A stretch of DNA of 64,000 nucleotides from an uncultured Planctomycetaceae bacterium (lineage in GTDB: Bacteria; Planctomycetota; Planctomycetia; Pirellulales; Pirellulaceae): NCBI GenBank assembly GCA_963934735.1, contig CAWVZW010000002.1:3919-67918 (forward strand). Direction: 5' to 3'. The position numbers were made by a program, and so were the translations under genes. How positions within the stretch are numbered: position 1 is the first letter of the stretch; every line of letters starts with the position of its first letter. The notes beneath the pieces were generated by a model. It saw only the letters and a list, made by a program, of their open reading frames with translations, was not told the origin of the DNA and ran no database searches. Shown piece by piece: positions 5,441-59,183 of this stretch.

Positions 5441-5769
5441 TTAGTAATCACTCAATTATTAACTGCATTCATGGCTCGGTTGCAAATTTCCACGCGTTAT
5501 TGATTGTAACACAGACCAGCCCTTGGCGCGACGCTCCATCTGGCCAACAAACAAGTTGAAGACGCACTGCAGGGTGCTTGCTCGGCGATGCGTCGGTGTT
5601 CAGGCTCTACTGAAAAGGTAAGGAACTTGCGACGGGTCACTCCTGCCACTCTTTGCGCAGAGCTGAAACTAAAACCGATTGTGTCTCTTTTACATTCTCC
5701 AACTATACACAGCACCAACTGGACACATACAATAACGGGTATGATCAAGGCAAGAAAGCGAGTTTAGTC

Positions 5770-23960: not shown

Positions 23961-23969
23961 AATTATTCT

Positions 23970-24761: not shown

Positions 24762-24895
24762 TGATTTTTGTCCGAAAGAAGCGATTGAACGCACTATAAA
24801 ACATCTTCAAATGTAGCGAGTATTATATTGTGAATGTACTGTTATGAGAACCGTTGCTAGGGGGCCGAAACAACCTAATTTCTGCTGGAATTTAT

Positions 24896-45326: not shown

Positions 45327-46292
45327 ATGACGACCCGATTAAACGACAGTGCCGTAGTATTAGTGCAACAATTACTTGAGAAATACGCCGAACTAGAAAT
45401 AACTCACTCACAACTAGACAATGGCGTTACGATCATCGATCTAGGCATTTCAGTATCAGGCAGTTTAGCAGCAGGGATCTCACTCGCTGAAATCTGTCTC
45501 GCTGGCCAGGGCCACGTCACACTCGTTCCCCTGACTAGCAACCTGCCAACCGCACATGCAGTTACGATCAATTCCGATCATCCACTTGCCGCTTGCATGG
45601 CTAGTCAATACGCTGGCTGGAAAATTGCGACTGACGACTTCTACGGAATGGGCTCAGGTCCGATGCGGGCGGCCGCTGGTACGGAAGAAATTTATCAGCG
45701 CATCGGCTGTACCGAATCCGCTTCGCACGTCGTCGGAGTCATTGAATCATCGTCCATTCCGACCACTTCAGCATGTGAGCTCATCACCGCGGCCTGCGAG
45801 ATTGAGCCGCAGAATCTCACGCTACTGGTCGCCCGAACCTCGAGCCTTGCTGGAACGGTCCAAATCGTCGCTCGTAGTCTCGAAACCGCAATGCACAAAA
45901 TGCACGAACTTGGATTCGACCTGCACCGTGTTGAACGTGGCACAGGAACTGCTCCTCTGTGCCCTCTTGGCCAAGACGACATACTATCAATCGGCCTCAC
46001 CAACGATGCTATCCTATATGGCGGCGAGGTGGAAATCTGGGTCCGTGGTGATGACAGTAGCCTCAACGACATTGGACCAAAAATCCCCAGCAATGCATCT
46101 GCGGATTACGGTCGCCCCTTTGTGGAAATCTTCAAACAATACAATAACGATTTCTACAAAATCGACCCTCATCTATTCAGCCCAGCAGCTATTCGCATCA
46201 ACAATGTCGACACGGGCAATACTTTTTGCTTTGGTGAAATCAACCCCGCTGTATTAATAGAATCTTTCAACTCTGCCCCACTTTCGGACTAA
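45327..46292 (+). CDS. mch: Methenyltetrahydromethanopterin cyclohydrolase
   Basis: 321 aa with LAEICLAGQGHVTLVP, HPLAACMASQYAGWKI, FYGMGSGPMRA, SLAGTVQIVARSLETAMHK, TNDAILYGG and DFYKIDPHLFSPA. These match Mch of methylotrophs and methanogens block by block. Confidence 0.85.
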   Translation: MTTRLNDSAVVLVQQLLEKYAELEITHSQLDNGVTIIDLGISVSGSLAAGISLAEICLAGQGHVTLVPLTSNLPTAHAVTINSDHPLAACMASQYAGWKIATDDFYGMGSGPMRAAAGTEEIYQRIGCTESASHVVGVIESSSIPTTSACELITAACEIEPQNLTLLVARTSSLAGTVQIVARSLETAMHKMHELGFDLHRVERGTGTAPLCPLGQDDILSIGLTNDAILYGGEVEIWVRGDDSSLNDIGPKIPSNASADYGRPFVEIFKQYNNDFYKIDPHLFSPAAIRINNVDTGNTFCFGEINPAVLIESFNSAPLSD

Positions 46293-46301
46293 GTAAGCCA
46301 G

Positions 46302-47231
46302 ATGAAAATCGCCGCCCTTGGACATCCTAATTCTTGGTACTTACGAGATCTACAGCGCGCCGCCGAACAAACAAGGCACGAAGAACTCGAATTAAACGCT
46401 GTCGCATTTACCCAAATTAGTGCCAGCGTTGAACCCGACGGCAGGTCTGCGTTTCTGAGCGACACTCATGACCTCTTAACCTACGACGCAATCCTTGTGC
46501 GTACCATGCCACCTGGATCACTCGAACAAGTCATCTTCCGCATGAATGCACTAGCTATGCTCGAGCATGCAAGCGGCAACACTTTCAACGACTACCCACC
46601 TGTCATTTTAAATAGCCCGCGCGCCATTGAGCTGGCGGTCGATAAATACCTATCACTCGCTCTCCTACGTCAAAATAACATTCCCATTCCCCGAACTCAT
46701 GTTTGCCAGCACGCGGATGCGGCCATGCAAGCTTACGAGCAATTGGGACCGGATGTTGTCCTGAAACCACTTTTTGGCGGCGAAGGACGTGGGATCACCC
46801 GCGTATCTGATCCGGCTTTGGCACTGCGTGCCTTCAAGATGATCGAACAATTTGACGGCGTTATTTATCAACAAGAATTTATCGCTCACGAAGGTTTTGA
46901 CATCCGTATCTTAGTTATTGGAGACAACACATTTTCAATTCGGCGAGTCAATTCTGACGACTGGCGTACCAATGTGTCCTTGGGGGCGCGGGCAGAAGCC
47001 TTTGAAGCGAGCGCGGAATTGATACAATTGGCGCGTCAGGCAGCAAATGTTGTACAAGCCAAAATAGCGGGTGTTGACATATTAATCGCCCCCGACGGTA
47101 CGCCAACAATACTCGAAGTCAACGCCGTGCCCGGCTGGAAAGGTCTCGCGGAAGCGACCGGCCAGGACATTGCCCTAGAAGTCCTGGCGTTTACGGTTGA
47201 GCAAATTGCTAGCCAGCGTAACAAATCATAA
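46302..47231 (+). CDS. ATP-grasp (RimK-type) ligase, possibly H4MPT/methanopterin-related glutamate ligase
   Basis: RimK-like ATP-grasp blocks (VVLKPLFGGEGRGI, IYQQEFI, DIRILVIG, AGVDIL...PTILEVNAVPGW). It starts 9 nt after mch. Confidence 0.7.
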   Translation: MKIAALGHPNSWYLRDLQRAAEQTRHEELELNAVAFTQISASVEPDGRSAFLSDTHDLLTYDAILVRTMPPGSLEQVIFRMNALAMLEHASGNTFNDYPPVILNSPRAIELAVDKYLSLALLRQNNIPIPRTHVCQHADAAMQAYEQLGPDVVLKPLFGGEGRGITRVSDPALALRAFKMIEQFDGVIYQQEFIAHEGFDIRILVIGDNTFSIRRVNSDDWRTNVSLGARAEAFEASAELIQLARQAANVVQAKIAGVDILIAPDGTPTILEVNAVPGWKGLAEATGQDIALEVLAFTVEQIASQRNKS

Positions 47232-47310: not shown

Positions 47311-48987
47311 ATGAACGTCGCCGACCTATTACATCAACATGCCCTGCAACGGGGATCATCGATGGCCTTGGCAGAACCGATCGCCAAAAAATGGGATCGC
47401 AGCGAATTGCCTCTTGATGAGCGTTATCACTGTATGACTTTTGCAGAACTCGATGAAGATAGTTCACGCTTAGCCGCTGGATTGCTAGAACACGGGGTCC
47501 TACCCGGAACCCGTATGGCGTTGATGATTCCTCCGAGCTTGGAATTCATATCTTGGGTTTTTGCACTATTCAAAGCTGGTGTTGTTACCGTGCTCATCGA
47601 TCCGGGCATGGGCCGTAAAAACATGATTGATTGCCTACAACGAGTTCAAACCGAAGGATTTATCGGTATCAGCTTAGCCCAGGCACTGCGGGTTGTGATG
47701 CGCCATAAATTTCCCTTGGCAAAAACCAACGTCACCGTTGGCCGCCGTTGGTTTTGGGGAGGTCCCACTGCGGACCAACTGCGGCGTACGTCGCTTGATG
47801 CTTTCCAGAGTTTTCAAGCGAACCCAAGTGATCCGGCAGCGATTATCTTCACAACCGGAAGCACAGGGCCACCGAAAGGTGTCCATTACTGTCACGAAAA
47901 CTTCTATCAACAAGCCGTTCAAATCCAAAACCATTATGACATCCAACCCGGTGAAAGCGACTTGCCCGCGTTCCCGCTGTTTGGCCTGTTTAACGCCGCC
48001 ATGGGAGTCGCCACAGTATTCCCTGTAATGGATCCCACGCGTCCAGCACACGTCAAACCGCAGAACATTATCGGTCCGATTCAGGATTGGAAAATCAGTC
48101 AATCGTTTGGGTCACCAGCGTTGTGGGACGTGGTGGGGCGATACTGTGAAGAACAAGACATTCAATTGCCCTCACTCAAACGAATCCTCTCCGCCGGTGC
48201 TCCGGTTCCAAGTCGCGTGCTGCGGCAAATGTGTGCTGCGATGCCATCCGATGGTGAAATGTTTACCCCTTACGGCGCTACAGAAGCATTACCTGTTGCA
48301 TCCATCTCGGCTAGCGAAGTACTTCAAGAGACAGCCGCACTCACGCAACAAGGGCGCGGTACTTGCGTCGGTAAGCAGTTTTCTGGGATTCAATGGCAAG
48401 TCATTGAAATTGACGACGAGGCGATACCATCTATCGATAAGGCAAAACCGGTGGAAACAGGAACCATTGGTGAACTAATTGTCCAAGGCCCAGTCGTGAC
48501 TTCGCATTACGTGACACATGACGAGGAAACACGGATGCATAAAATCTCCGACGGTGACAATTTCTGGCACCGCATGGGTGATGTCGGCTACCTCGATGGC
48601 GATCATCGATTTTGGTTCTGTGGTCGTAAGACGCACCGCGTACAACTCGCTGACAAAACCCTTTTTAGTATTCCTCTTGAAGCGATCATCAATCAACATC
48701 CGGCTGTTTACCGCAGCGCACTGGTAGGTGTCAAAGTTGACAACACAATGACTGCGGCCATCGTCGTACAGCGATGGGCTCGGGGACATGCAAATGACGA
48801 ATCGCAGGAAATTACCGACGCCCAATTGTCTCAGGACATCCTCGAGCTTGCTGCGAACAATCCGGCCGCCGCTGACATCCAATTTGTTCTAGTGATGGAT
48901 GAATTACCGGTCGACATCCGCCATAATGCCAAGATATTTCGCGAAAAAATTGCCCTCTGGGCCCAAGACCGCATCCCCACCGACTAG
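47311..48987 (+). CDS. AMP-dependent synthetase/ligase (fatty acyl-CoA/AMP ligase family; OleC-like)
   Basis: Adenylation core motif IIFTTGSTGPPKGV, YGATE and GDVGYLD. The ATG at 47311 is preferred because the ORF-track start at 47197 overlaps the preceding gene. Confidence 0.8.
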   Translation: MNVADLLHQHALQRGSSMALAEPIAKKWDRSELPLDERYHCMTFAELDEDSSRLAAGLLEHGVLPGTRMALMIPPSLEFISWVFALFKAGVVTVLIDPGMGRKNMIDCLQRVQTEGFIGISLAQALRVVMRHKFPLAKTNVTVGRRWFWGGPTADQLRRTSLDAFQSFQANPSDPAAIIFTTGSTGPPKGVHYCHENFYQQAVQIQNHYDIQPGESDLPAFPLFGLFNAAMGVATVFPVMDPTRPAHVKPQNIIGPIQDWKISQSFGSPALWDVVGRYCEEQDIQLPSLKRILSAGAPVPSRVLRQMCAAMPSDGEMFTPYGATEALPVASISASEVLQETAALTQQGRGTCVGKQFSGIQWQVIEIDDEAIPSIDKAKPVETGTIGELIVQGPVVTSHYVTHDEETRMHKISDGDNFWHRMGDVGYLDGDHRFWFCGRKTHRVQLADKTLFSIPLEAIINQHPAVYRSALVGVKVDNTMTAAIVVQRWARGHANDESQEITDAQLSQDILELAANNPAAADIQFVLVMDELPVDIRHNAKIFREKIALWAQDRIPTD

Positions 48988-49045
48988 TACTTTCTTTAAA
49001 GCAATAAAGAAATTTTGTGACTACGTGAGAACAGTAAAACCGATA

Positions 49046-49072
49046 TATTTAAAGTTGTATATACTTTAAATA
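49046..49072. promoter_or_regulatory. Perfect 10-bp inverted repeat TATTTAAAGT-N7-ACTTTAAATA in the AT-rich spacer upstream of the GYF gene
   Basis: Read directly from the sequence (49046-49055 and 49063-49072). It is AT-only, so more operator-like than terminator-like. A TTGACG hexamer follows at 49080. Confidence 0.5.
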
Positions 49073-49148
49073 ACAAGATGTTGACGATACTGAGACAAAC
49101 TTAAAAGCATCATTACTTCACATACAGGGTAGGATCTTAACTAGCACA

Positions 49149-50510
49149 ATGAGTACAGAGTGGTTTTACAAAATCGATGAACAGGAACACGGGCCAGTTG
49201 CGGGCAAGACGCTCAAACTGCTCGCGGAAGTGGGACAAATCACGCCTAACACACTCGTTCGCAAGTCCACTTCCAAGAGCTGGAACGAAGCACATCATGT
49301 CAAGCAGCTTTTTGACGCTCACAACTCCCACCCAAAAATTGACGCACCCCCAATAATTGGGCAGTCCGCAGATTCCCAACACGCCAAAACCTCGCCCGGA
49401 CAACCACCGCCACAAATACGTGCTGTTGCTGAACCCCCGACAATCATTCCTACCGCTAAATTAGCAACGGAATCCGATGTATTCGCGCCCCAAATCAATC
49501 TTGTTACCGCGCCTCATTTCGAGGAATCCGCTAAGAACGACAGTCCCAACCCGAATAATGCCGGTGACGGTGAAAATACAGAAAACAACAACCGGCGCCC
49601 TCTGACATTGGTCCTTTCCTTAGTCGGCCTTATCGTCCTAACAATTCCAACTGCGTGGTATTTATACAGTGAACCCACGACAACGGATGGGAATACGTCT
49701 ACTCAAGCGAACTATCCTCCGGCGCCCAACGCCAACCTCGCCAACACAGAAAACAGCCCCGATCATTCTCTGCTAATCAATAACGTATTTAGCAAACAGG
49801 CGCAATGGATCGATCCCACCAACGATCAATTCCAACTGACCCGCGACGCGCGACTATCAATCGCTCATGTTTGGCTAGATACACAACAAACTGAGCAACC
49901 CGTTCTTAATATTGTCATCAAAATTGAAAACCGCAATAGATCAACCGAGTTGTCGCTACAACGCCAATTTGCAAATCAAATCGCGATGAACCGCCCTAAT
50001 GAATTCAACCCCTACGTCCCGCTGATTCGCCTTGCCACCGGCGGCGGACAACTGCTTGACTCAGAAGCTAAACTCGTCAATCGTACAATTCCAGTGTCGA
50101 GTGAAATCAGTGAAACATATCAAATCGTACTTACGGTTGAGCAATCCGCTAAACTTGATCAATTGCGAGTTGCGGTGCCCAAAGCTTGGTTTAATAAATC
50201 AGGTTATTGGGGATTTGAGATTCCTCAAGTTATGATCACGACATCTAAACCGATAGAGGCTCCTGTGCAAATCGCCAGCGAGCCAAATCCGGCGAGTGGC
50301 AATCTCGTCGACATGCAATCTAGCGTTGTTGACGGCGAAGACAGCGTTGCCGACGGAAAAGGTGTGCTACCTCCATCGCCGTTCCGGAACGAAACTACCA
50401 AGGCAAAACCAAAAAACGGAGATCAGCCAACAACCATTCTGGATCTCCAGTCTCAAATAGACCTAGAAAAGAAACGGGTCCCTGAACCTCGCGGCGATGA
50501 GCCACAATAA
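49149..50510 (+). CDS. GYF_2-domain membrane protein of unknown function
   Basis: N-terminal WFYKIDEQEHGPV....L..L...G.I.PNTLV (GYF_2/DUF4339-like), a Pro-rich linker, one TM helix (LTLVLSLVGLIVLTIPTAWYLY) and a ~270-aa C-terminal domain. It overlaps the next gene by 14 nt. Confidence 0.5.
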   Translation: MSTEWFYKIDEQEHGPVAGKTLKLLAEVGQITPNTLVRKSTSKSWNEAHHVKQLFDAHNSHPKIDAPPIIGQSADSQHAKTSPGQPPPQIRAVAEPPTIIPTAKLATESDVFAPQINLVTAPHFEESAKNDSPNPNNAGDGENTENNNRRPLTLVLSLVGLIVLTIPTAWYLYSEPTTTDGNTSTQANYPPAPNANLANTENSPDHSLLINNVFSKQAQWIDPTNDQFQLTRDARLSIAHVWLDTQQTEQPVLNIVIKIENRNRSTELSLQRQFANQIAMNRPNEFNPYVPLIRLATGGGQLLDSEAKLVNRTIPVSSEISETYQIVLTVEQSAKLDQLRVAVPKAWFNKSGYWGFEIPQVMITTSKPIEAPVQIASEPNPASGNLVDMQSSVVDGEDSVADGKGVLPPSPFRNETTKAKPKNGDQPTTILDLQSQIDLEKKRVPEPRGDEPQ

Positions 50511-51537
50511 TCCGCAGAAGGGAAACGGTCCGTTGAAGGTATTGGTGACAGGCGCTGGAGGCTTTCTTGGCAGTGAAATTGCAATTCAGTTGCTGCGCCA
50601 GAACCATAGCGTCATTGGATTCTCAAGAGGTGCTTACCCCGCGTTAGAGAAGCAGGGGGTGCAGTGGATACATGGTGATATTCGCGACGCTGAGGCGATA
50701 CACCAGGCCTGCCGTAATGTAGATGTAATCATACATACCGCTGCCTTGCCGGGTGTTTGGGGTTCGTGGGATTCTTATTACCAAGTCAACACCGTCGGTA
50801 CCGAACAGGTAATCGCTGCCGCGCGTGCCCAAGCAGTCAAACAACTTATATACACAAGCAGTCCCAGTGTGACATTTGACGGAACGGACCAAGCAAATAT
50901 CCCAGAAGATGTCCCCTACCCCAGTTCGTGGCTTTGTCATTATCCGCACTCCAAAGCGATTGCTGAACAGGCAGTCCTCGCGGCAAATGGCCAAGACAAC
51001 CTCGCTACGTGCGCGTTGCGACCACATTTGATTTGGGGGGCAAATGATCCACATCTCATTCCGCGACTCATCCAACGCGGCAAGGCAGGTAAGTTGAGAA
51101 TCGTTGGCGACGGCACCAATCTCGTTGATATGGTACACGTTACCAATGCGGCCCACGCTCATCTTTGTGCCATCGACGCATTGAACAACAACCCCGCATC
51201 TCACGGCAAAGCATATTGGATTTCACAACAAGAACCGGTCAATTGTTGGGATTGGCTCAACGATTTACTACAATCCGCCGGTGTCCCGCCAATCAAAAAG
51301 AGAATTTCTAGCCGCACTGCTTATGTAGCGGGAGCGGTGCTAGAGGCCATCTACACAACGTTACGCATTGGTAGTGAACCTCGGATGACTCGATTTCTAG
51401 CAAAACAACTCTCGGCAGACCACTATTTTGATAATCGCCGCGCCCAAGAGTTGTTGGGATATTTCCCTATTGTTTCTACCGCACAAGCGATGGACGATCT
51501 CAAACAGGAGATTAGTCCCACAGCGAGTGAGTCTTGA
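50497..51537 (+). CDS. 3-beta-hydroxysteroid dehydrogenase/NAD-dependent epimerase family extended SDR (OleD-like)
   Basis: VLVTGAGGFLGSEI Rossmann motif and catalytic YPHSK (YxxxK); 346 aa. Confidence 0.8.
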   Translation: MSHNNPQKGNGPLKVLVTGAGGFLGSEIAIQLLRQNHSVIGFSRGAYPALEKQGVQWIHGDIRDAEAIHQACRNVDVIIHTAALPGVWGSWDSYYQVNTVGTEQVIAAARAQAVKQLIYTSSPSVTFDGTDQANIPEDVPYPSSWLCHYPHSKAIAEQAVLAANGQDNLATCALRPHLIWGANDPHLIPRLIQRGKAGKLRIVGDGTNLVDMVHVTNAAHAHLCAIDALNNNPASHGKAYWISQQEPVNCWDWLNDLLQSAGVPPIKKRISSRTAYVAGAVLEAIYTTLRIGSEPRMTRFLAKQLSADHYFDNRRAQELLGYFPIVSTAQAMDDLKQEISPTASES

Positions 51538-51653
51538 ATGATAAACAACCCACCTGCTCGCTTGCATAATTCAACGAATACGGATAATTTTAAGGATTAC
51601 CTGCCGTCAGGCAGTCATCGAGCAGTGTCCAACTCACGATCCCCTAAAGAAAC

Positions 51654-52919
51654 ATGACTCTAACGCACCATCAATTTACACCTCCCACCGTGTCCCGCAT
51701 TGTGTTAACAGGGATCGGACTGACAGCACCTAACGGTAATAATCTGCAAGACTATCGCGCAAACCTGCTCGCCGGAGTGAGTGGCGTTCAGGATTACGAA
51801 ATTCGCTATGTTGGAAAAACACTAGCTGGCATTTGTGACTTTGATGCGCTCAAACATCAAAACCGACGAGAGATTCGACGCGGCACACGAGCTGGCAGTA
51901 TTGCAATCTACTGTTGCAACGAAGCCATCGCTAACAGCCAAATCGACTGGGAACAAGTCGATCGCTCTCGCACAGGCATTTACCTTGGCGTCACCGAACA
52001 TGGAAATGTTGAGACTGAAAATGAAATCTATGAACTCAGCCAGTATGATTACGACGTAAGCGTCTGGAATCACTTTCATAATCCGCGTACAGTCGCCAAC
52101 AACCCAGCGGGCGAAGCTGCCTTAAATATGACAATCACTGGACCGCATTACACAATTGGTGCTGCCTGCGCCGCAGGCAACTCTGGTTTGATCCAAGGCG
52201 CTCAAATGCTGCAACTTGGTCAATGCGATGTCGCCCTTGCCGGTGGTGTCTCGGAAAGCATTCACACGTTTGGAATCTTTGCCAGTTTTAAGAGCCAAGG
52301 AGCGTTGGCAGAACATCCAGTTGCCCACGAAGCATCTCGTCCATTCGATGTCGACCGCACGGGTATCGTCGTTTCGGAAGGCGGTTGCGTCTATGTACTG
52401 GAACGATTAGACGATGCTGTGGCACGCGGTGCTCACATATACGGTGAACTCGTAGGATATTCTATCAACACTGACGCAACTGATTTCGTGCTTCCCAACC
52501 CGGAACGACAATCGCAATGTGTCCAAATCGCATTGGATCGAGCGGGCATTACGCCTGCGGATGTCGATATCCTCAGCACTCATGCCACCGGAACTAAAAG
52601 TGGCGATATTCAGGAAATCGCTGGGCTCAGAAAAGTATTCCAAGGAAATTCCAGTTGCTGCGTCAATAATACCAAGAGCTTTATCGGTCATACGATGGGT
52701 GCAGCCGGTGCGTTAGAACTAGCAGGAAATCTCCCCGCATTTGATGACAATATCTGTCATGCAACGATCAATGTTGATCAACTCGACGAGGAATGTGCTA
52801 TGGACGGACTCGTCCTAAATCAGCCCCAGACGTTAGAGACCGTTGACTATATAGTGAACAATTCGTTCGGAATGCTGGGAATCAATTCCACTGTGGTAAT
52901 AAAGAAATTCACCTCGTAA
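51654..52919 (+). CDS. Beta-ketoacyl-[ACP] synthase (FabF/FabB-like, catalytically complete)
   Basis: Active-site Cys in TIGAACAAGNSG, His in STHATGT, and Lys/His in NNTKSFIGHTMGAAG. Confidence 0.85.
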   Translation: MTLTHHQFTPPTVSRIVLTGIGLTAPNGNNLQDYRANLLAGVSGVQDYEIRYVGKTLAGICDFDALKHQNRREIRRGTRAGSIAIYCCNEAIANSQIDWEQVDRSRTGIYLGVTEHGNVETENEIYELSQYDYDVSVWNHFHNPRTVANNPAGEAALNMTITGPHYTIGAACAAGNSGLIQGAQMLQLGQCDVALAGGVSESIHTFGIFASFKSQGALAEHPVAHEASRPFDVDRTGIVVSEGGCVYVLERLDDAVARGAHIYGELVGYSINTDATDFVLPNPERQSQCVQIALDRAGITPADVDILSTHATGTKSGDIQEIAGLRKVFQGNSSCCVNNTKSFIGHTMGAAGALELAGNLPAFDDNICHATINVDQLDEECAMDGLVLNQPQTLETVDYIVNNSFGMLGINSTVVIKKFTS

Positions 52920-53153
52920 ATATCCTGCAACACCTTGTTTATCACTTATAGGTAGACATTCTAGGTTACACCCTCGAAATTACACCAAAGTGGATAAAAG
53001 AGCGACTGAAACCACTGGTTTTATCTAATAAACTCTGTAAGATTTATGGATTATACATATTCAGTGTGGCATGTCAGCCCACTTGCACTATCTTATATAC
53101 TGGTAGGTTGATATGTTTCTACAAACCATTTTCCGCCTCGGAGCGCAACGAGC

Positions 53154-53414
53154 ATGACACCTGCTGAAATTCGTGATGCAGTCCTAAAAATACTCATTAC
53201 CATTAATCCGGATGAGGACTTGTCATCATTGGATGACGAACAAGATTTCAAGAGTCAACTGGAAATGGACAGTATGGACTTCCTCGATATTGTGATGGAA
53301 CTGCGGAAGCGTTATGGTGTTAAAGTTCCCAACGAGGACTACGAACATTTGGAAAGCATGAACAAGACAGTTGCTTACCTTGAACCCAAGATGAAAGATA
53401 AACCAGCGGCATAA
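53154..53414 (+). CDS. Acyl carrier protein (discrete)
   Basis: 86 aa, acidic, with the phosphopantetheine attachment motif LEMDSMDFLDIV. Confidence 0.8.
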   Translation: MTPAEIRDAVLKILITINPDEDLSSLDDEQDFKSQLEMDSMDFLDIVMELRKRYGVKVPNEDYEHLESMNKTVAYLEPKMKDKPAA

Positions 53415-53416
53415 TC

Positions 53417-54808
53417 ATGTACGATTCGATCATTATTGGCGCAGGCATGTCAGGCTTAGCCGCCGGTATCCGATCAGCGTACTATGATCAAAAGGTCTGC
53501 ATTCTCGAACGCCATAACACAATCGGCGGATTGAACTCTTTTTATCGGCTCCGTGGCCGTAACTACGATGTCGGCTTGCACGCGGTCACCAACTTCACAC
53601 CGCGAGGAACACGCCGTGGCCCATTTGCTCGACTACTGCGACAACTGCGTTTAACGTGGGACGATTTTGGATTGTCGCCACAGCTAATGTCATCCATTTC
53701 GTTTCCCAACGTCGAACTCGCATTTGACAACAATATCGATCTGCTGCGAAGCGAAGTCGCTCGCGCTTTCCCCAATCAAATTGATAACTTCGAAAAGCTG
53801 ATGGACTCGCTCGTCGATTACGACGATCTTGAGCAAAGCCATTTTGAATTGTCGACCCGCGAACGACTGTCCGAGGTTATCACCGACCCACTGTTAATCG
53901 AAATGATTTTGTGTCCAGTGATGTGGTACGGTAACCCCCGTGAACATGACATGGACTACGGGCAGTTTTGCATTATGTTCCGCGCCCTATTCCTCGAAGG
54001 CTTAGCACGACCCTTTGATGGTGTCCGCTTGATCTTAAGAAAGCTCGTTCGTAAATTCCGCGAACTAGGTGGCGAACTAAAACTACGCACTGGAGTCCAA
54101 CAGATTAAAATCGATGAGGGCCGCGCCGTGGGTGTCATCTTGGATTGCGGTGACGAGATATCCGCAAAGAACATCTTAAGTAGCGTCGGCGCCGTTGAGA
54201 CATTCCGACTGTGTGACGATGAAGACATAACCCATGTTCACAAAACGGGCCAATTGTCCTTCGTAGAAGCTATCTCGACACTCGACACCTACCCCTTGGA
54301 GTTAGGGCACGATAAGACGATCATCTTTTTCAACGACTCGGACAAATTCCATTGGCAACGACCACTTGATGATCTTTGTGATATACGCACTGGCGTTATC
54401 TGTACGCCTAACAATTATTGCTATGATGCGTCCGATGGTGAACTCCCCGATGGGGTCATGCGAATTACCGCACTAGCGGACTTTAATCGTTGGAAAAATC
54501 TAAACAAAGACGACTACGACAAACAGAAGGAATTCTGGTTTAACAAAGTGGTAGATTCAGCTACCCAATTCGCACCGGATTACCGCGAACACACCATCGA
54601 CACAGATATGTTTACACCTCAAACAATCCAGCGATTTACTTCACACGACAACGGTGCAGTTTACGGCGCAACGCGCAAGTGGTTTGACGGTACGACGAAT
54701 TTCAAAAACCTCTTCTTGTGTGGTACGGATCAAGGGTTCGTGGGAATCGTGGGTTCCATTATCAGCGGTATCTCCATGGCGAATCATCATTTGCTAGGCG
54801 AAAATTAA
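53417..54808 (+). CDS. NAD(P)/FAD-dependent oxidoreductase, phytoene desaturase (CrtI)/amine oxidase superfamily
   Basis: N-terminal dinucleotide fold DSIIIGAGMSGLAAG...ILERHNTIGG, and a C-terminal LFLCGTDQG.VG motif typical of CrtI-type enzymes. It starts 2 nt after the ACP stop. Confidence 0.75.
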   Translation: MYDSIIIGAGMSGLAAGIRSAYYDQKVCILERHNTIGGLNSFYRLRGRNYDVGLHAVTNFTPRGTRRGPFARLLRQLRLTWDDFGLSPQLMSSISFPNVELAFDNNIDLLRSEVARAFPNQIDNFEKLMDSLVDYDDLEQSHFELSTRERLSEVITDPLLIEMILCPVMWYGNPREHDMDYGQFCIMFRALFLEGLARPFDGVRLILRKLVRKFRELGGELKLRTGVQQIKIDEGRAVGVILDCGDEISAKNILSSVGAVETFRLCDDEDITHVHKTGQLSFVEAISTLDTYPLELGHDKTIIFFNDSDKFHWQRPLDDLCDIRTGVICTPNNYCYDASDGELPDGVMRITALADFNRWKNLNKDDYDKQKEFWFNKVVDSATQFAPDYREHTIDTDMFTPQTIQRFTSHDNGAVYGATRKWFDGTTNFKNLFLCGTDQGFVGIVGSIISGISMANHHLLGEN

Positions 54809-54924
54809 GCGCCTCTCGCCTTCGCTATCACCCTAACGCTAAAACCAAAATGCAGTAGAATGTAACCTCGGCGGTATTCGCAACTACCGAGTGTTCGATA
54901 ACCTAATTCAAACCATTAATTCAC

Positions 54925-56340
54925 ATGCCTAAAGATTTTCTTGCCGGAGCCCAAGACGAATACGACGTGATCGTCATTGGCAGTGGTTTGGCTGGTCTCA
55001 CCGCCGCCAATATTCTTGGGTCGGCTGGCTATCAAGTGTTGCTCATCGAGCAACACTACAAACTGGGCGGAATGGCAACTTGGTTTAAACGACCCAGTGG
55101 GCACATATTTGATGTCTCACTACACGGGTTTCCATTCGGTATGAAAAAAAGCTGCCGTCGTTATTGGAGCCAAGAAATCGCGGACCGTATTATTCCACTG
55201 TTGGGCGTGCGGTTTGATAATCCACAATTTTCATTAACGACACCCTACGACCGTGAAAGTTTCACGGAACTGTTATCAAGCCAATTCGGAGTTGCACGTG
55301 AAACCGTGACGAAGTTTTTTGATGCAGCACGGAATATGAATTTTTACGACGAACAACAAATGACCACGGGCGAATTGTTTGAACAATTCTTCCCTGGTCG
55401 CCACGATATCATCCGGCTATTGATGGAACCCATTACGTATGCCAATGGATCAACTTTAGAAGACCCCGCTATCACCTACGGAATCGTGTTTTCTAACTTC
55501 ATGAAAAACGGCGTTTACACCTTCCAAGGTGGAACCGATATGCTCATCAACATGATGCATGACGAGTTAAAACGCAATAATGTGGATGTGCGAATCAAGT
55601 GCGGCGCAAAGAAAATTAATACCCGACGTGGTGCTGTTGAAAGTGTGGAAGTCAACGATCGCACAATCCGCTGCCGCAGTGTAGTTTCAAATGCCAATTT
55701 ACTGACGACAATCTTCAAAATGGTCGGGGAAGAAGTATTTGATAAAGATTACATCGATGACGCGCGAAATGTCCGACTAAACAATTCCAGCACGCAAGTC
55801 TATATGGCGCTTGCCGAAAACGATTCCATCGATCCCGCAACGGGCGACCTGCTCTTCAGCTCAACTGCCGACCGATTCGAGACAGATCTTTTATTGAGCC
55901 GTGATATTACTAGTCGCACATTTTCATTTTACTATCCCGGTACCCGACCCCATGCGAATCCACGGCACTTAATTGTGTCAAGCACCAATGCCAACTGGGA
56001 AGACTGGAAGCATTTGGATGAAGAGCAATACAAAGCGAGTAAAGAAGAACTTATCGACACCACTCTCGGAGCACTTGAAAAATACGTGCCCAACGCGCGA
56101 GAGCGAATCATTTTTGCCGAAGCATCTACGCCGCGTACTTTTGCCCATTACACGCAGCATCAAAACGGAGCTAGTTTTGGAACTAAATTTGAGGGCCTTG
56201 CGGTCAGTCGGGGCTTGCCCGAACAAATCAAAGGACTGTATCATGCCGGTAGCGTTGGCATCATTATGTCCGGCTGGCTTGGTGCAATAAACTATGGCGT
56301 TATCGTATCCAATGACGTGGATGCTCTATTAATGAAGTGA
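54925..56340 (+). CDS. NAD(P)/FAD-dependent oxidoreductase, phytoene desaturase (CrtI) family (second copy)
   Basis: [15 protein letters not shown]...[10 protein letters not shown], and a C-terminal GLYHAGSVG motif. Confidence 0.75.
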
Positions 56341-56434
56341 TTTGGAGCTGAATCGCGTGCCCCACAGAAGGTGCCGCAATTCCAAGGTACTAAATCGCTG
56401 TTTCCGTCTCACTAACCATTTTACCGATTACCCT

Positions 56435-56893
56435 ATGACCATCAAACAAATCCAAGCCGCAATTCCCCATCGTGCACCCATGCTATTGATTGACGAAGTG
56501 GTATCGCAGACCGATACCACAATCAGCTGCAAAAAGACATTTCGGGACGATGAGTTCTTTTTTCAAGGTCATTATCCTGGTCAACCAATCGTACCGGGAG
56601 TTATATTGTGCGAAGTTGGGATGCAAGCAGGTGCGCTGTTGCTCGCGGAGATTATCCAAGCTGCTGGGGGAGTTCAATCAGGCGATGAGCTAAGTGGTAA
56701 AGTTCCTGTTGCGACTCGACTGAATAATGTTAAATTCAAGAAGATCGTAAAACCTGGTGATACCGTTGAAATTGAAGTGACGCTTACAGACCAAGTGCAA
56801 GTCGCGTATTTTTTGACCGCACGGGTCACCGTTGACGGTAAGTTGGCTACTCGTTTTGACTTCGCCTGTACTATCGCCGACCCGCAAACCTAA
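56435..56893 (+). CDS. FabZ/FabA-type 3-hydroxyacyl-ACP dehydratase
   Basis: The ATG at 56435 gives [13 protein letters not shown]....[24 protein letters not shown], with catalytic His and Glu in a hot-dog fold. Confidence 0.8.
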
Positions 56894-56946
56894 GCAGCTT
56901 CAAAGTTCAATCGAAGACACCATCCTTAACCACCAAAGAACACACA

Positions 56947-57747
56947 ATGGCATTCCTTCAACTTGAAGATAAAACCATCGTTATCATGGGCGTCGCTAAC
57001 CGTAAGAGTGTCGCCTACCACATTGGTAAAACGATCTATGAAGCTGGCGGACTGCCGGTATATGTTGTTCGCAGCGACAAGCGACGCGAAGAATTACAAA
57101 AACTAATTGGCGAACATCCGATCTACGTATGCGACGTAGAATTCCCTGAGCAAATTGAAAATCTCCGGGAAACACTAGCGGAATCACATCCAGTGATCGA
57201 CGGATTAGTACATTCCATTGCATTTGCCGATTATGAAGATGGTCCAAAGCCCTTTCACGCGACGAGTAAGTCACAATTTTTACGCGCGGTGGACATCAGC
57301 TGTTTTTCTTTGATGGCAGTATCCAATGCACTGAAGGATCTTTTCGCTAACGACGCTGCCGTGGTGTCGATTTCCATCTCCACTACCACAATGGCGAGCG
57401 AAAATTATGGATTCATGGGTCCGATTAAAGCCGCTCTCGATTCCTCATTGGCTTTTCTCACAAAGTCGTTTAGTAGTTTCTCAAATGTGCGTTTTAATGC
57501 AGTCGGACCAAGTTTACTAAAAACATCTGCGTCGGCCGGCATCCCCGGCTACGTTGAATCCTATCTTTACGCCGAACAGGTAATCCCTCGAGGTTCTGCC
57601 GTTGAAACGCAAGAAGCAGCAAATGTCGCTGCGTTTTTGCTCAGCCCGCGCTCTTCCGGAATCTGCGCGCAAACCATCGTTGTCGATGCCGGAATGCATA
57701 TCAATTACTTTGACGAAAAAATCGTCAAACGGTCCATATCCGAATAG
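56947..57747 (+). CDS. Enoyl-[ACP] reductase, FabI-type SDR
   Basis: [18 protein letters not shown] (FabI-type glycine motif) and Y-x6-K in [12 protein letters not shown]; 266 aa. Confidence 0.8.
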
Positions 57748-57761
57748 GTTTAAATATTGCC

Positions 57762-59183
57762 ATGGATTCTACACGTCCTAATATCCTCTGGTACTGCACT
57801 GACCAACAGCGATTTGACACGATCGGTGCCTTGGGCAATCCGCAAGTCGACACGCCGAATATCGACAAGTTAGTTGAATCCGGCGTCGCTTTTACCCACG
57901 CGTATTGCCAAAGTCCAATTTGCACTCCGAGTCGCTCAAGTTTCTTAACCGGTTTGTACCCAGCGCGTGTTCATAACACTCGTAACGGAAACGATACCTT
58001 TCCAGGATTTCCACCGCTAATTACCAAACTCGTTTCTGATGCTGGCTATCGTTGTGGAAATATCGGTAAATTTCATCTAACAAGTTCCGGCCACCGCACC
58101 GAACCACGACTCGACGACGGCATGACCTATTGGCAGTTTAGTCACGCACCTCGCGACGACTGGGAATCTGGTCATCACTATGCAGATTGGGTCCGCGATC
58201 AAGGTGGTGATTTAGATGCAATGCGTAATAGCCCAGAACGGGTGGATCCAGCAATGCATCAAACTCGTTGGGCAACGGAATGTGCAATTGAATTCACTGC
58301 AAGTGACGACAAGTCTGACATTCAAAATACTGACCAACCTTGGATGTTGTGTGTCAATATTTATGATCCACACCCACCGTTTATTCCACCGAAGTTCTAC
58401 GCTGATCAATTTGATGCGAAACAGATGCCGGGACCCTATTTTCAACCCAAGGATCTCGAGCAACAAGCACGATTAGCCGCGATTGATTTTCAGGGTGATC
58501 CGAAAACGCCAAGTGGCCATGATGCTAAACAAATGCAGGCCTACTATTATGCCATGATCAAGCAAATTGACGATCAATTCCAGCGAATCATTGAACACTT
58601 GCGTGACACGAATCAACTCGATAACACCATCATCATCTTTACCAGTGACCATGGTGAATCTCTCGGAGATCACGGACTGCTCGAGAAAGGTTGTCGTTTT
58701 TACGAGGGCCTTGTTCGTGTTCCTCTTATTTTTTCATGTCCCGGAAGATTCCTGCAAAATGTCCGGCGAGATGCACTTGTCGAACTTCTTGATCTAACTT
58801 CAACAATCGTTGAACTTGCGGGAATCGAACAACCAGATTATATGCAAGGTCGTACACTGGTACCGCTATTAACAAATCCAGACGCTGAAGATGATCACAG
58901 AGAGTTTGTACGCAGCGAATATTTCGACGCGTTAGATCCATTTTTCACAGGGGGTAGCGGCGTATTTGCCACGATGTATCGTAATCGGCAATTCAAACTT
59001 TCGATTTATCACGGGCACGGACTCGGCGAATTGTATGACCTCGAAAACGACCCGTGGGAATTTAACGACTTATGGAACAATCCCGAGTATACTACGGTAA
59101 AAGCCGATCTTATTGCAAAGAGTTTTGACGCACACGTGCTGCTTACCACGGATGTTGGGTCTGAACGAATCGCTCCGATGTAG
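57762..59183 (+). CDS. Sulfatase (formylglycine-type) without recognisable signal peptide
   Basis: It starts directly at the catalytic core (MDSTRPNILWYCTDQQRFD) and has CTPSRSSFLTG, GKFHL and TSDHG. It begins 14 nt after the FabI-like gene. Confidence 0.85.
   Translation: MDSTRPNILWYCTDQQRFDTIGALGNPQVDTPNIDKLVESGVAFTHAYCQSPICTPSRSSFLTGLYPARVHNTRNGNDTFPGFPPLITKLVSDAGYRCGNIGKFHLTSSGHRTEPRLDDGMTYWQFSHAPRDDWESGHHYADWVRDQGGDLDAMRNSPERVDPAMHQTRWATECAIEFTASDDKSDIQNTDQPWMLCVNIYDPHPPFIPPKFYADQFDAKQMPGPYFQPKDLEQQARLAAIDFQGDPKTPSGHDAKQMQAYYYAMIKQIDDQFQRIIEHLRDTNQLDNTIIIFTSDHGESLGDHGLLEKGCRFYEGLVRVPLIFSCPGRFLQNVRRDALVELLDLTSTIVELAGIEQPDYMQGRTLVPLLTNPDAEDDHREFVRSEYFDALDPFFTGGSGVFATMYRNRQFKLSIYHGHGLGELYDLENDPWEFNDLWNNPEYTTVKADLIAKSFDAHVLLTTDVGSERIAPM

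What the first reader, a model, noticed from the sequence alone, without database searches (positions are those of the whole stretch)
47311..57747. Non-canonical type II FAS-like lipid cluster with two CrtI-family flavoproteins, an adenylating ligase and an OleD-like SDR
Nine co-directional genes make up the cluster: an AMP-dependent ligase (TGSTGPPKG), a GYF/TM protein, a 3beta-HSD-type extended SDR (GAGGFLGS, YPHSK), a catalytically complete KS (Cys/His/His present), and a discrete ACP (DSMDF). They are followed by two CrtI/phytoene-desaturase-family flavoproteins, a FabZ-type dehydratase and a FabI-type enoyl reductase (Y-x6-K). Packing is tight: the ACP stop and the first flavoprotein start are 2 nt apart, and the GYF and SDR genes overlap by 14 nt. 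The window contains no FabG-type ketoreductase, FabD, FabH, thioesterase or acyltransferase. Housekeeping FAS II does not normally carry two CrtI-like enzymes plus an adenylating enzyme. The ligase + 3beta-HSD pair recalls OleC/OleD of head-to-head olefin synthesis. The KS + ACP + FabZ + FabI + phytoene-desaturase-like combination recalls gene sets that were proposed, but never proven, for ladderane synthesis in anammox planctomycetes. My hypothesis is a dedicated pathway to a modified long-chain lipid or hydrocarbon (desaturated, conjugated or otherwise redox-tailored) whose product is unknown.
Basis: partly seen in the sequence, partly recalled or inferred. Interest (0 to 1): 0.75.

Follow-up and report, generated by a model that had tools for sequence, protein, structure and literature searches.

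The report
Olefin-pathway genes fused to unusual lipid synthase
A planctomycete operon joins two genes of the bacterial olefin (Ole) pathway to a small, uncharacterised fatty-acid-synthase-like module with two carotenoid-desaturase-like flavoproteins; the module recurs in at least four phyla and may supply the unusual acyl chains for long-chain hydrocarbons.

Summary

**Organisation.** The cluster is modular, not one invariant unit:
- The core is KS-ACP-Crt1. It is conserved in Pirellulales, Phycisphaerae, Opitutales, Nitrospinota and Bacteriovoracaceae, and the KS stays 55-73% identical.
- The core is often extended to KS-ACP-Crt1-Crt2-FabZ'-FabI'.
- The ligase and the SDR are OleC- and OleD-type. 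They score 525 and 394 bits on the Ole models, against 187 and 119 bits for the next family.
- The GYF/TM gene is not conserved.

**Link to the Ole pathway.**
- Blastopirellula marina keeps the whole gene order and adds an OleA-type thiolase next to it.
- A Bacteriovoracaceae contig has KS-ACP-Crt1-OleB-OleC-OleD as one overlapping operon.
- No OleA or OleB lies in the window.

**Exclusions.** None of the KS, ACP, FabZ' or FabI' reaches a housekeeping equivalog cut-off. The ladderane resemblance is one of composition only.

**Best reading.** This is a dedicated ACP-bound acyl-tailoring module that feeds head-to-head Ole chemistry. The product would be a polyunsaturated long-chain olefin, or a beta-lactone if the genome lacks OleB. 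The product and the flavoprotein reactions are inferred. I rate it a new variant of a known kind, with interest about 0.65.

The parts
47311..48987 (+). OleC-type adenylating enzyme (ANL superfamily; beta-lactone-synthetase-like), 558 aa
   Evidence: NCBIfam scores: PRK09274 651 bits (cut-off 478); OleC models 525 and 484 bits (cut-offs 900 and 850); next family 187 bits. It is 57% identical to the Blastopirellula marina orthologue in the same position. It is 36% identical to the ligase of the Bacteriovoracaceae KS-ACP-Crt1-OleB-OleC-OleD operon.
49149..50510 (+). GYF_2 domain plus single-pass membrane protein, 453 aa; probably not a conserved pathway component
   Evidence: Pfam GYF_2 at 39 bits. 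One hydrophobic span at about residues 150-175. Only 30-39% identical even in fairly close relatives. B. marina has a Zn-ribbon/TM protein at this position with no detectable similarity (E = 2).
50497..51537 (+). OleD-type extended SDR (2-alkyl-3-oxoalkanoate-reductase-like), 346 aa
   Evidence: OleD models 394 and 364 bits (cut-off 580); next family HpnA 119 bits. Motifs GAGGFLG and YPHSK. It lies directly upstream of the KS in most Pirellulaceae loci, including those without the ligase nearby.
51654..52919 (+). Elongating beta-ketoacyl-ACP synthase of a distinct family, 421 aa
   Evidence: The Cys/His/His triad is intact. The FabF model gives 285 bits, below the 494 cut-off. The family signature NSFGMLGIN is present in 74 of 75 orthologues, where FabB and FabF have NSFGFGGTN / NSLGFGGHN. 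The KS is 55-73% identical across phyla.
53154..53414 (+). Dedicated acyl carrier protein, 86 aa
   Evidence: PP-binding, DSMD serine motif. Below every AcpP cut-off (43 bits against 66-71). Always sits between the KS and Crt1.
53417..54808 (+). Crt1: FAD flavoprotein with a CrtI/CrtD fold, 463 aa
   Evidence: Pfam NAD_binding_8 and Amino_oxidase. crtI_fam 41 bits against a cut-off of 238. AF2 model pLDDT 88. Best PDB fold matches are CrtD 4rep (TM 0.74) and CrtI 4dgk, at 16% identity. The family has 305 clusters (at 50% identity) with E <= 1e-30.
54925..56340 (+). Crt2: second CrtI-superfamily flavoprotein, 471 aa
   Evidence: Pfam Amino_oxidase 54 bits. crtI_fam 81 bits against a cut-off of 238. 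22% identical to Crt1. Follows Crt1 in Pirellulales, Phycisphaerae, Thermoguttaceae and Nitrospinota.
56435..56893 (+). FabZ-like 3-hydroxyacyl-ACP dehydratase, 152 aa
   Evidence: Pfam FabA. FabZ model 102.5 bits against a cut-off of 113. Catalytic His (GHYP) and Glu are present. Orthologues also hit ApeI/ApeP-like models.
56947..57747 (+). FabI-like enoyl-ACP reductase, 266 aa
   Evidence: adh_short_C2 178 bits. Best FabI model 175 bits against a cut-off of 362. Y-x6-K motif. Follows FabZ' in Pirellulales and Phycisphaerae.

Best explanation
This is an Ole-pathway-linked lipid operon.

**The six-gene synthase.** KS, ACP, Crt1, Crt2, FabZ' and FabI' form a dissociated synthase that builds or tailors a special acyl chain, probably unsaturated, on its own carrier protein.
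- The KS extends the chain with malonyl units.
- FabZ' dehydrates and FabI' reduces.
- The two CrtI-fold flavoproteins isomerise or desaturate ACP-bound intermediates.

**Hand-over to Ole chemistry.**
- An OleA-type thiolase, encoded elsewhere in this genome, joins two chains head to head.
- The OleD-type SDR reduces the 3-keto group.
- The OleC-type ligase closes a beta-lactone with ATP.
- If an OleB exists elsewhere, decarboxylation gives a long-chain, probably polyunsaturated, olefin. If not, the product is a beta-lactone lipid.

**What is shown.** Gene content, intact catalytic motifs, the family relationships, and repeated physical linkage of the KS-ACP-Crt1 module to ole genes.

**What is inferred.** The order of steps, the flavoprotein reactions, the transfer from ACP to OleA, and the product.
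For: 1. **Ole-type ligase and SDR.** They match the OleC and OleD models at 525 and 394 bits. The next-best families score 187 and 119 bits.
2. **Blastopirellula marina DSM 3645.** It keeps the order ligase-X-SDR-KS-ACP-Crt1-Crt2-FabZ'-FabI', followed by a convergent thiolase. That thiolase passes PRK09258 at 443 bits against a cut-off of 285. Metagenome contigs L086 and L091 and MAG L078 repeat the layout.
3. **The thiolase family is OleA-type by context.** It is directly followed by a haloalkane-dehalogenase-like hydrolase in L030, L022, L099, L111 and L119. JGI names some members of that hydrolase family cis-3-alkyl-4-acyloxetan-2-one decarboxylase.
4. **Bacteriovoracaceae contig L118.** It carries KS-ACP-Crt1-OleB-like-OleC-like-OleD-like with overlapping gene boundaries. 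This is an independent fusion in a different order.
5. **Scale of linkage.** 18 of 75 KS+Crt1 loci have an ole-type gene within the flank held.
6. **Literature.**
   - ole clusters occur in Planctomycetes and Verrucomicrobia (PMC7158056).
   - C31:9 is made from two 16:4 chains supplied by the Pfa synthase, and Geobacter bemidjiensis carries pfa and ole in tandem (PMC4882568).
   - The pfa-like survey lists only Gemmata and Planctomyces limnophilus among planctomycetes (PMC3098273).
   - Rattray et al. proposed that FASII clusters with phytoene-dehydrogenase-like genes make the polyunsaturated hydrocarbon of pfa-less Desulfotalea (PMC2649909).
7. **Not the housekeeping set.** The KS, ACP, FabZ' and FabI' all fall below the equivalog cut-offs. 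The KS family also has an invariant Met-Leu in place of the Phe-Gly gate.
Against: - No OleA or OleB is present in the 64-kb window. No OleB was seen in any Pirellulales locus held.
- The Ole equivalog cut-offs are not reached.
- Most Opitutales loci, and the Nitrospinota, Phycisphaerae and Thermoguttaceae loci, show the module with no ole gene within 10 kb.
- The Opitutales oleA-oleB proximity is about 8.5 kb, lies across unrelated genes, and may only reflect lineage synteny.
- Known OleA enzymes use acyl-CoA, and no thioesterase or acyl-CoA-forming step is encoded here.
- CrtI-type chemistry normally extends conjugation. It does not obviously make methylene-interrupted double bonds.
- No lipid data for this organism exist.
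Confidence: 0.5

Rival explanations
1. The cluster is a self-contained elongation and desaturation pathway with no Ole chemistry. The ligase acts as a fatty acyl-AMP/ACP ligase that loads a starter acid onto the dedicated ACP. The 3beta-HSD-type SDR acts as the missing beta-ketoacyl reductase. KS, SDR, FabZ' and FabI' then form a complete cycle, and the flavoproteins desaturate the chain. The product is a modified fatty acid for membrane lipids or lipid A.
For: - No FabG-type reductase is in the cluster.
- The Nitrospinota variant carries a FabG-like gene right after Crt2, at 274 bits on the FabG model. This suggests the module needs a ketoreductase.
- The SDR stays attached to the KS in loci where the ligase is not nearby.
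- No OleA or OleB is in the window.
- The module exists without ole genes in several phyla.
Against: - The ligase and SDR are far closer to OleC and OleD than to acyl-ACP ligases or ketoreductases.
- An OleB-type hydrolase is inside the Bacteriovoracaceae operon.
- An OleA-type thiolase is adjacent in Blastopirellula-like loci.
Confidence: 0.25
2. The enzymology is the same as in the best explanation, but the pathway stops at a beta-lactone lipid because Pirellulales lack OleB. This would resemble the oleACD clusters that make lipstatin- or nocardiolactone-type products.
For: - No OleB-like hydrolase occurs in the window or in any Pirellulales locus held, including about 10 kb around OleA in L081, L086, L091, L095, L100-102 and L109.
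- A profile search with OleB returned only Verrucomicrobiota and Nitrospinae among the named top hits.
- The literature states that oleACD clusters without oleB make beta-lactones (PMC7064751).
Against: - Only small parts of each genome were seen.
- ole clusters and polyolefins are reported for Planctomycetes.
- The top 120 hits are saturated by Opitutales, so absence is not shown.
Confidence: 0.12
3. These are simply the organism's housekeeping type II fatty acid synthase genes.
For: - The KS, ACP, FabZ and FabI folds and catalytic residues are all intact.
- The KS and Crt1 are highly conserved across Pirellulales.
- The whole genome could not be inspected.
Against: - All four proteins are below the equivalog cut-offs: 285 against 494, 43 against 66, 102.5 against 113, and 175 against 362 bits.
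- No FabD, FabG or FabH is present.
- The composition varies between lineages: Lignipirellula has only Crt1-Crt2 at the locus, and Opitutales only KS-ACP-Crt1.
- The cluster is linked to ole genes.
Confidence: 0.04
4. It is a carotenoid or ladderane-type pathway. The CrtI-like enzymes would act on isoprenoids, or the cluster would be an orthologue of anammox Cluster I.
For: - Crt1 has a CrtD/CrtI fold.
- The gene composition resembles kuste3603-3608, which encode ACP, FabZ, two FabF and a phytoene-desaturase homologue.
Against: - There is no phytoene or squalene synthase and no radical-SAM gene in the cluster.
- There is a single active KS.
- FabZ' is closer to ordinary FabZ than to amxFabZ.
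- Crt1 and Crt2 share only 16% identity, or weak sequence hits, with CrtI.
- The ACP stop lies 2 nt from the Crt1 start.
- The module occurs in non-anammox phyla.
Confidence: 0.02

Closest known systems
OleABCD head-to-head olefin / beta-lactone pathway (Xanthomonas campestris, Shewanella oneidensis, Micrococcus luteus)
   Same: - An OleC-type ANL enzyme and an OleD-type 3beta-HSD SDR are present and are the best HMM matches by a wide margin.
- OleA- and OleB-type genes accompany orthologous clusters in other genomes.
- ole genes are already reported in Planctomycetes and Verrucomicrobia.
   Different: - The order here is oleC-X-oleD followed by six extra genes, not oleABCD.
- oleA and oleB are absent from the window.
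- The equivalog cut-offs are not met.
- A KS-ACP-flavoprotein module is embedded, which no described ole cluster in the searched literature carries.
pfa-ole tandem clusters (Geobacter bemidjiensis pfaDABC-oleABCD-pfaE; the Shewanella Pfa synthase supplies 16:4 for C31:9)
   Same: A dedicated acyl-chain synthase sits physically next to ole genes. The six-gene module stands where pfa stands. The pfa-like survey lists only Gemmata and Planctomyces limnophilus among planctomycetes, so it did not report pfa-like genes for Pirellulales.
   Different: - The proteins here are dissociated single-domain proteins, not multidomain Pfa megasynthases. The KS scores 93 bits on the PfaA model against a cut-off of 1010.
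- There are no FabA-type DH pairs and no PfaD-type reductase.
- Two CrtI-fold flavoproteins have no counterpart in Pfa.
Anammox 'Cluster I' (amxACP-amxFabZ-FabF2/FabFmut-phytoene-dehydrogenase homologue-B12 radical SAM) and the syntenic Desulfotalea psychrophila FASII clusters (Rattray 2009)
   Same: ACP, FabZ-like, FabF-like and phytoene-desaturase-like genes occur together. The function there is also unproven. Rattray et al. tied the Desulfotalea version to C31:8 and C31:9 hydrocarbons.
   Different: - There is no inactive KS partner and no radical-SAM gene.
- FabZ' is not of the amxFabZ type.
- The module is found in aerobic, non-anammox lineages.
- Orthology between Crt1 and kuste3607 could not be tested.
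CrtI / CrtD / CrtISO carotenoid desaturases and isomerases
   Same: FAD Rossmann N-terminus. Predicted fold with TM 0.74 to CrtD 4rep. Weak HMM hits to carotenoid isomerase and CrtD.
   Different: - About 16% identity, well below the family cut-offs.
- There is no isoprenoid gene context.
- The genes are tightly adjacent to an ACP gene (2-nt gap), which points to acyl-ACP or fatty-chain substrates.

Membership tests
Ole pathway (OleABCD) | OleC: ANL-superfamily beta-lactone synthetase | tested here: inconclusive
   OleC equivalog models give 525 and 484 bits, below their cut-offs of 900 and 850. The broader PRK09274 family is passed (651 against 478). The next unrelated family scores 187 bits.
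Ole pathway (OleABCD) | OleD: 3beta-HSD-type 2-alkyl-3-oxoalkanoate reductase | tested here: inconclusive
   394 and 364 bits against a cut-off of 580; next family HpnA 119 bits. 41% identical to the SDR of the L118 OleB-C-D operon.
Ole pathway (OleABCD) | OleA: FabH-like thiolase for non-decarboxylative head-to-head condensation, in the cluster | tested here: not met
   No homologue in the 64-kb window (tblastn E <= 1). One is present next to the orthologous cluster in B. marina, L086, L091 and L078.
Ole pathway (OleABCD) | OleB: haloalkane-dehalogenase-like beta-lactone decarboxylase | tested here: not met
   None in the window or in any Pirellulales locus held. Present in Verrucomicrobiota, Nitrospinae and Bacteriovoracaceae loci. 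The whole genome was not available.
Ole pathway (OleABCD) | Product is a long-chain olefin with a central cis double bond | not testable with these tools
   Needs GC-MS of neutral lipids.
Housekeeping type II FAS | FabF, AcpP, FabZ and FabI reach the equivalog scores | tested here: not met
   285 against 494, 43 against 66-71, 102.5 against 113, and 175 against 362 bits.
Housekeeping type II FAS | Clustered with fabH, fabD and fabG (initiation, malonyl transfer, ketoreduction) | tested here: not met
   None in the window.
Anammox Cluster I (candidate ladderane genes) | Active KS paired with an inactive, CLF-like KS | tested here: not met
   There is a single KS with an intact Cys/His/His triad. 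The definition comes from the bioRxiv 2026 preprint.
Anammox Cluster I (candidate ladderane genes) | Cobalamin-dependent radical SAM enzyme in the cluster | tested here: not met
   No Radical_SAM domain lies at 47-58 kb. The only one in the window is an MqnC-like gene at 22794-23960.
Anammox Cluster I (candidate ladderane genes) | amxFabZ-type dehydratase | tested here: not met
   Best PDB matches are ordinary FabZ (4h4g, 72 bits). amxFabZ 7qv0 scores 52 bits.
CrtI / phytoene desaturase family (TIGR02734) | Reaches the family HMM cut-off | tested here: not met
   Crt1 41 bits and Crt2 81 bits against a cut-off of 238.
CrtI / phytoene desaturase family (TIGR02734) | CrtI-type three-domain FAD fold | tested here: met
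   Tested for Crt1 only. AF2 model pLDDT 88. The top Foldseek hits are CrtD 4rep (TM 0.74) and CrtI 4dgk. Crt2 was not modelled.
Pfa (type I PUFA) synthase | Multidomain PfaA-D proteins | tested here: not met
   All proteins are single-domain. The KS scores 93 bits on the PfaA model against a cut-off of 1010.
Aryl polyene (APE) type II cluster | KS/CLF pair, two ACPs, ApeI/ApeP dehydratase pair, ApeQ ketoreductase, and export/acyltransfer genes | tested here: not met
   Only the FabZ' orthologues show ApeI/ApeP-like Pfam hits. The other components are absent. The feature list is from my own knowledge.

The most novel reading that the evidence does not exclude
KS-ACP-Crt1, with Crt2-FabZ'-FabI' in its extended form, is a dissociated, flavoenzyme-dependent synthase of polyunsaturated acyl chains. 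It would be a type II counterpart of the Pfa megasynthase. The two CrtI-fold proteins would act as enoyl-ACP isomerases or desaturases, and the KS, with its altered gate (Met-Leu for Phe-Gly), would accept the unsaturated intermediates. This would explain how bacteria without a reported pfa system could make C31:9-type polyolefins through the Ole enzymes: candidates are Pirellulales, Opitutales, Nitrospinota, Bacteriovoracaceae and perhaps Desulfotalea. It would also give a tractable, aerobic model for the unexplained phytoene-dehydrogenase homologue of the anammox ladderane cluster.
Probability: 0.25. Interest if true: 0.85.

Novelty: new variant of a known kind. Interest (0 to 1): 0.65.

Why it matters
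- **An open question about polyolefins.** Hentriacontanonaene (C31:9) is attributed to the Pfa synthase plus OleABCD. The pfa-like survey lists only Gemmata and Planctomyces limnophilus among planctomycetes and does not mention Verrucomicrobia, although ole clusters are reported for both phyla. Rattray et al. also found no known PUFA pathway in the C31:8/C31:9 producer Desulfotalea. A small module of discrete proteins, repeatedly fused to ole genes, is a concrete candidate for the missing acyl supply.
- **A testable system.** Blastopirellula marina DSM 3645 is cultured, and genetic tools for planctomycetes have been published (PMC4910669, title and abstract seen in the listing; the paper itself was not read).
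- **A sizeable uncharacterised family.** The Crt1 family has about 300 clusters at 50% identity and spans at least four phyla. The associated KS family has an invariant change at the substrate gate. Neither has a known function.
- **Relevance to ladderanes.** If the flavoproteins act on acyl-ACPs, that would bear on the unresolved role of the phytoene-dehydrogenase homologue in ladderane biosynthesis.
- **Applied interest.** The module could offer compact parts for engineering unsaturated hydrocarbons or beta-lactones.

Tried and rejected
- **Promoter and terminator scan of 44.9-59.4 kb.** Counts were at or below the shuffle expectation, so it gave no information.
- **Rfam scan of 44-60 kb.** No match. 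The 234-nt AT-rich spacer between the KS and ACP genes has no recognisable element.
- **PDB sequence searches for the ligase and SDR.** No OleC or OleD structure exists to compare with.
- **GYF/TM protein as a conserved part or an OleB substitute.** Rejected. The B. marina protein at the same position shows no detectable similarity, and both are single-pass membrane proteins.
- **Orthology with anammox Cluster I.** Only FabZ could be tested, through PDB entries, and it is not of the amxFabZ type. The kuste3607 sequence was not obtainable.
- **Sukovich et al. 2010.** The primary survey of ole genes and olefins in Planctomycetes and Verrucomicrobia is not held in the library. What I say about which strains make C31:9 rests on secondary citations and on my memory.
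- **Profile search for a planctomycete OleB.** The top 120 hits were saturated by Opitutales, so the result is inconclusive.
- **Opitutales oleA-oleB proximity.** I first read it as linkage. I downgraded it after seeing the same intervening genes conserved in Coraliomargarita.
- **An early wrong conclusion.** I first concluded that the full nine-gene order existed only in three near relatives. This was an artefact of the peptide-pattern seeding of the locus search. Searches corrected it.
- **One wasted literature search.** The minimum number of matching terms was set too low.

Full report
**1.

The + strand between 47.3 and 57.7 kb carries nine co-directional ORFs.

- The quoted motifs are present. 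The KS Cys/His/His triad, the FabZ His/Glu pair, the FabI Y-x6-K and the ACP serine are intact.
- The ACP stop and the Crt1 start are 2 nt apart. The GYF and SDR genes overlap by 14 nt. The other gaps are 53-234 nt.
- The ATG at 47311 is the likely ligase start, because orthologues are 554-562 aa long.
- Pfam scans of the rest of the window found no FabD, FabG, FabH, thioesterase, acyltransferase or Pfa gene.
- The flanks are typical of Pirellulales: PSCyt/PSD1/DUF1501 genes, sulfatases, and H4MPT-type MCH.
- GC content is uniform across the region, so nothing suggests recent transfer.

**2. None of the FAS-like proteins looks like the housekeeping copy.**

Each falls below the NCBIfam equivalog cut-off:

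| Protein | Score (bits) | Cut-off (bits) |
|---|---|---|
| KS on the FabF model | 285 | 494 |
| ACP on the AcpP models | 43 | 66-71 |
| FabZ' | 102.5 | 113 |
| FabI' | 175 | 362 |

The ligase and the SDR behave differently. They match the OleC models at 525 and 484 bits and the OleD models at 394 and 364 bits. The next families score only 187 and 119 bits. The strict clade-trained cut-offs (850-900 and 580) are not reached. I therefore call them OleC-type and OleD-type, not proven equivalogs.

**3. The cluster is conserved but modular.**

Crt1 is 65-68% identical across Pirellulales genera and about 50% identical in Opitutales. I ran a tblastn matrix over 80 genome loci and followed it with targeted look-ups. 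The layouts found were:

| Lineage or locus | Gene layout |
|---|---|
| Blastopirellula marina DSM 3645 and Planctomycetaceae MAGs (ligase 57-65% identical) | Full order, including the upstream MCH and RimK-like genes |
| Other Pirellulaceae | SDR-KS-ACP-Crt1-Crt2-FabZ'-FabI', bounded by unrelated genes |
| Phycisphaerae contig | KS-ACP-Crt1-Crt2-FabZ'-FabI' |
| Nitrospinota | KS-ACP-Crt1-Crt2-FabG-like |
| Thermoguttaceae | ACP-Crt1-Crt2-FabZ' |
| Lignipirellula | Crt1-Crt2 alone |
| Opitutales | KS-ACP-Crt1 as a three-gene operon |

Further points:

- The KS is the best-conserved member, at 55-73% identity across phyla.
- The KS family has an invariant NSFGMLGIN (74 of 75 orthologues). FabB and FabF have NSFGFGGTN or NSLGFGGHN at that place. 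This is the position of the gating Phe, as far as I know from the FabF literature.
- The GYF/TM gene is not part of the conserved set. B. marina has a Zn-ribbon/TM protein there with no detectable similarity to it.

**4. The link to the Ole pathway is the main new result.**

- In B. marina the cluster ends opposite a convergent thiolase. That thiolase passes NCBIfam PRK09258 at 443 bits against a cut-off of 285.
- Metagenome contigs L086 and L091 and MAG L078 repeat this layout.
- In Verrucomicrobiota, Nitrospinae and other contigs the same thiolase family is immediately followed by a haloalkane-dehalogenase-like hydrolase. That is the OleA-OleB pair. JGI names some of these hydrolases cis-3-alkyl-4-acyloxetan-2-one decarboxylase.
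- The most telling case is a Bacteriovoracaceae contig. It carries KS-ACP-Crt1-OleB-like-OleC-like-OleD-like with overlapping gene boundaries. This is an independent fusion in a different order and a different phylum.
- Overall, 18 of 75 KS+Crt1 loci have an ole-type gene within the flank held.
- In two Opitutales loci, oleA-oleB lies about 8.5 kb from KS-ACP-Crt1. The intervening genes are conserved in Coraliomargarita, so I count this only as weak evidence.

**5. Context from the literature.**

- ole clusters are reported in Planctomycetes and Verrucomicrobia (PMC7158056).
- The common Gram-negative product C31:9 is thought to arise from two 16:4 chains made by the Pfa synthase. Geobacter bemidjiensis has pfa and ole in tandem (PMC4882568).
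- The survey of pfa-like clusters lists only Gemmata and Planctomyces limnophilus among planctomycetes (PMC3098273).
- Rattray et al. noted that Desulfotalea psychrophila makes C31:8 and C31:9, that they found no known PUFA pathway in its genome, and that it carries FASII clusters with phytoene-dehydrogenase-like genes. They proposed a novel route (PMC2649909).
- oleACD clusters without oleB make beta-lactones (PMC7064751).
- No paper in the library links ole genes to this KS-ACP-flavoprotein module. A 2025 review of the phylum does not mention it.

**6. What the flavoproteins are.**

Sequence matches to solved structures are weak and mostly confined to the FAD-binding N-terminus. An AlphaFold model of Crt1 (pLDDT 88) is closest to the carotenoid desaturases CrtD 4rep (TM 0.74) and CrtI 4dgk, at 16% identity. 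Crt1 and Crt2 are 22% identical. The Crt1 family comprises 305 clusters (at 50% identity) with E <= 1e-30. It reaches Phycisphaerae, Lentisphaeria, Nitrospinota, Thermoguttaceae and Bacteriovoracaceae. The 2-nt gap between the ACP and Crt1 genes suggests an ACP-bound substrate. That is an inference.

**7. Mechanism I commit to (confidence about 0.5).**

- The six-gene module makes or tailors a special, probably unsaturated, acyl chain on its own ACP.
- An OleA encoded elsewhere condenses two chains.
- The OleD-type SDR reduces the 3-keto group.
- The OleC-type ligase forms the beta-lactone.
- OleB, if present elsewhere, yields a long-chain polyolefin. If it is absent, a beta-lactone lipid is the end product.

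Shown: gene content, motifs, family relations and linkage. Inferred: everything about substrates, order of steps and product.

**8. Main rival and exclusions.**

The main rival (0.25) is a self-contained elongation and desaturation pathway. In it the ligase loads the ACP and the SDR is the missing ketoreductase. The FabG-like gene in the Nitrospinota variant, and the absence of OleA and OleB here, favour this reading. The HMM affinities and the Bacteriovoracaceae operon argue against it.

Housekeeping FAS, carotenoid and ladderane readings are unlikely. There is no radical-SAM gene and no inactive KS partner. FabZ' is closer to ordinary FabZ than to amxFabZ.

**9. Verdict.**

It is worth experimental follow-up in Blastopirellula marina.

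Noticed in passing
window 45327-47231 (+): Methenyl-H4MPT cyclohydrolase (MCH, 398 bits) and a RimK-type ATP-grasp gene lie directly upstream of the ligase. The MCH and RimK-like genes also lie upstream of the lipid cluster in Blastopirellula marina (with two genes between them there) and in the Planctomycetaceae MAGs. One Pirellulaceae MAG (L006) has a CitG-like gene in the same neighbourhood. It is unclear whether this is more than synteny.
   Followed up: partly
window 51654-52919; KS residues 403-411: The KS family has an invariant NSFGMLGIN where FabB and FabF have NSFGFGGTN or NSLGFGGHN. The usual gating Phe-Gly is therefore Met-Leu in 74 of 75 orthologues from four phyla. This could mark an altered substrate tunnel.
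   Followed up: partly
window 52920-53153: The spacer between the KS and ACP genes is unusually long (234 nt) and AT-rich. It is about 259 nt in the close MAG L083 but only 25-32 nt in B. marina and Coraliomargarita. It has no Rfam match. An internal promoter or regulatory element is possible.
   Followed up: partly
L115 9033-11392 (Lentisphaeria MAG): A Crt1 homologue (about 40% identical) stands alone, with no KS or ACP, directly after a phosphatidylserine decarboxylase gene. This hints at a phospholipid-related role in that lineage.
   Followed up: no
L121 61-861 (Phycisphaerae contig): An enoyl-CoA hydratase/isomerase (crotonase) gene precedes KS-ACP-Crt1-Crt2-FabZ'-FabI' on the same strand. 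It may be a further accessory of the module.
   Followed up: no
L034 5723-9507 and 15169-18293 (Opitutales MAG): A P450-like gene, a GFO/IDH oxidoreductase and an unknown gene are inserted between the ACP and Crt1 genes. Six kb downstream, a 574-aa FAD_oxidored protein precedes FabZ'-FabI' homologues, where Crt2 would be expected.
   Followed up: partly
window 30762-32633 (+): A 623-aa protein combines a FlgI (flagellar P-ring) domain with HEAT repeats. The same architecture is conserved near the cluster in B. marina.
   Followed up: no
window 19718-21934 (-): An ABC-2 type permease is fused to a C-terminal Rce1-like CAAX protease domain, next to its ABC ATPase gene.
   Followed up: no
window 22794-24794 (-): A radical-SAM protein with a CofH/MqnC-type C-terminal region lies next to a VitK2_biosynth (menaquinone biosynthesis) family gene, which I read as futalosine-route menaquinone genes. 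This is the only radical SAM gene in the window and is unrelated to the lipid cluster.
   Followed up: no
window 27285-28862 (-): A 525-aa ORF has no Pfam match at E <= 1e-5.
   Followed up: no
window 3965-7338 and 57762-59183: The window has three sulfatase genes. One starts only 14 nt after the FabI-like gene and keeps that position in close relatives. It is probably a neighbour and not a pathway member, because B. marina lacks it there.
   Followed up: partly
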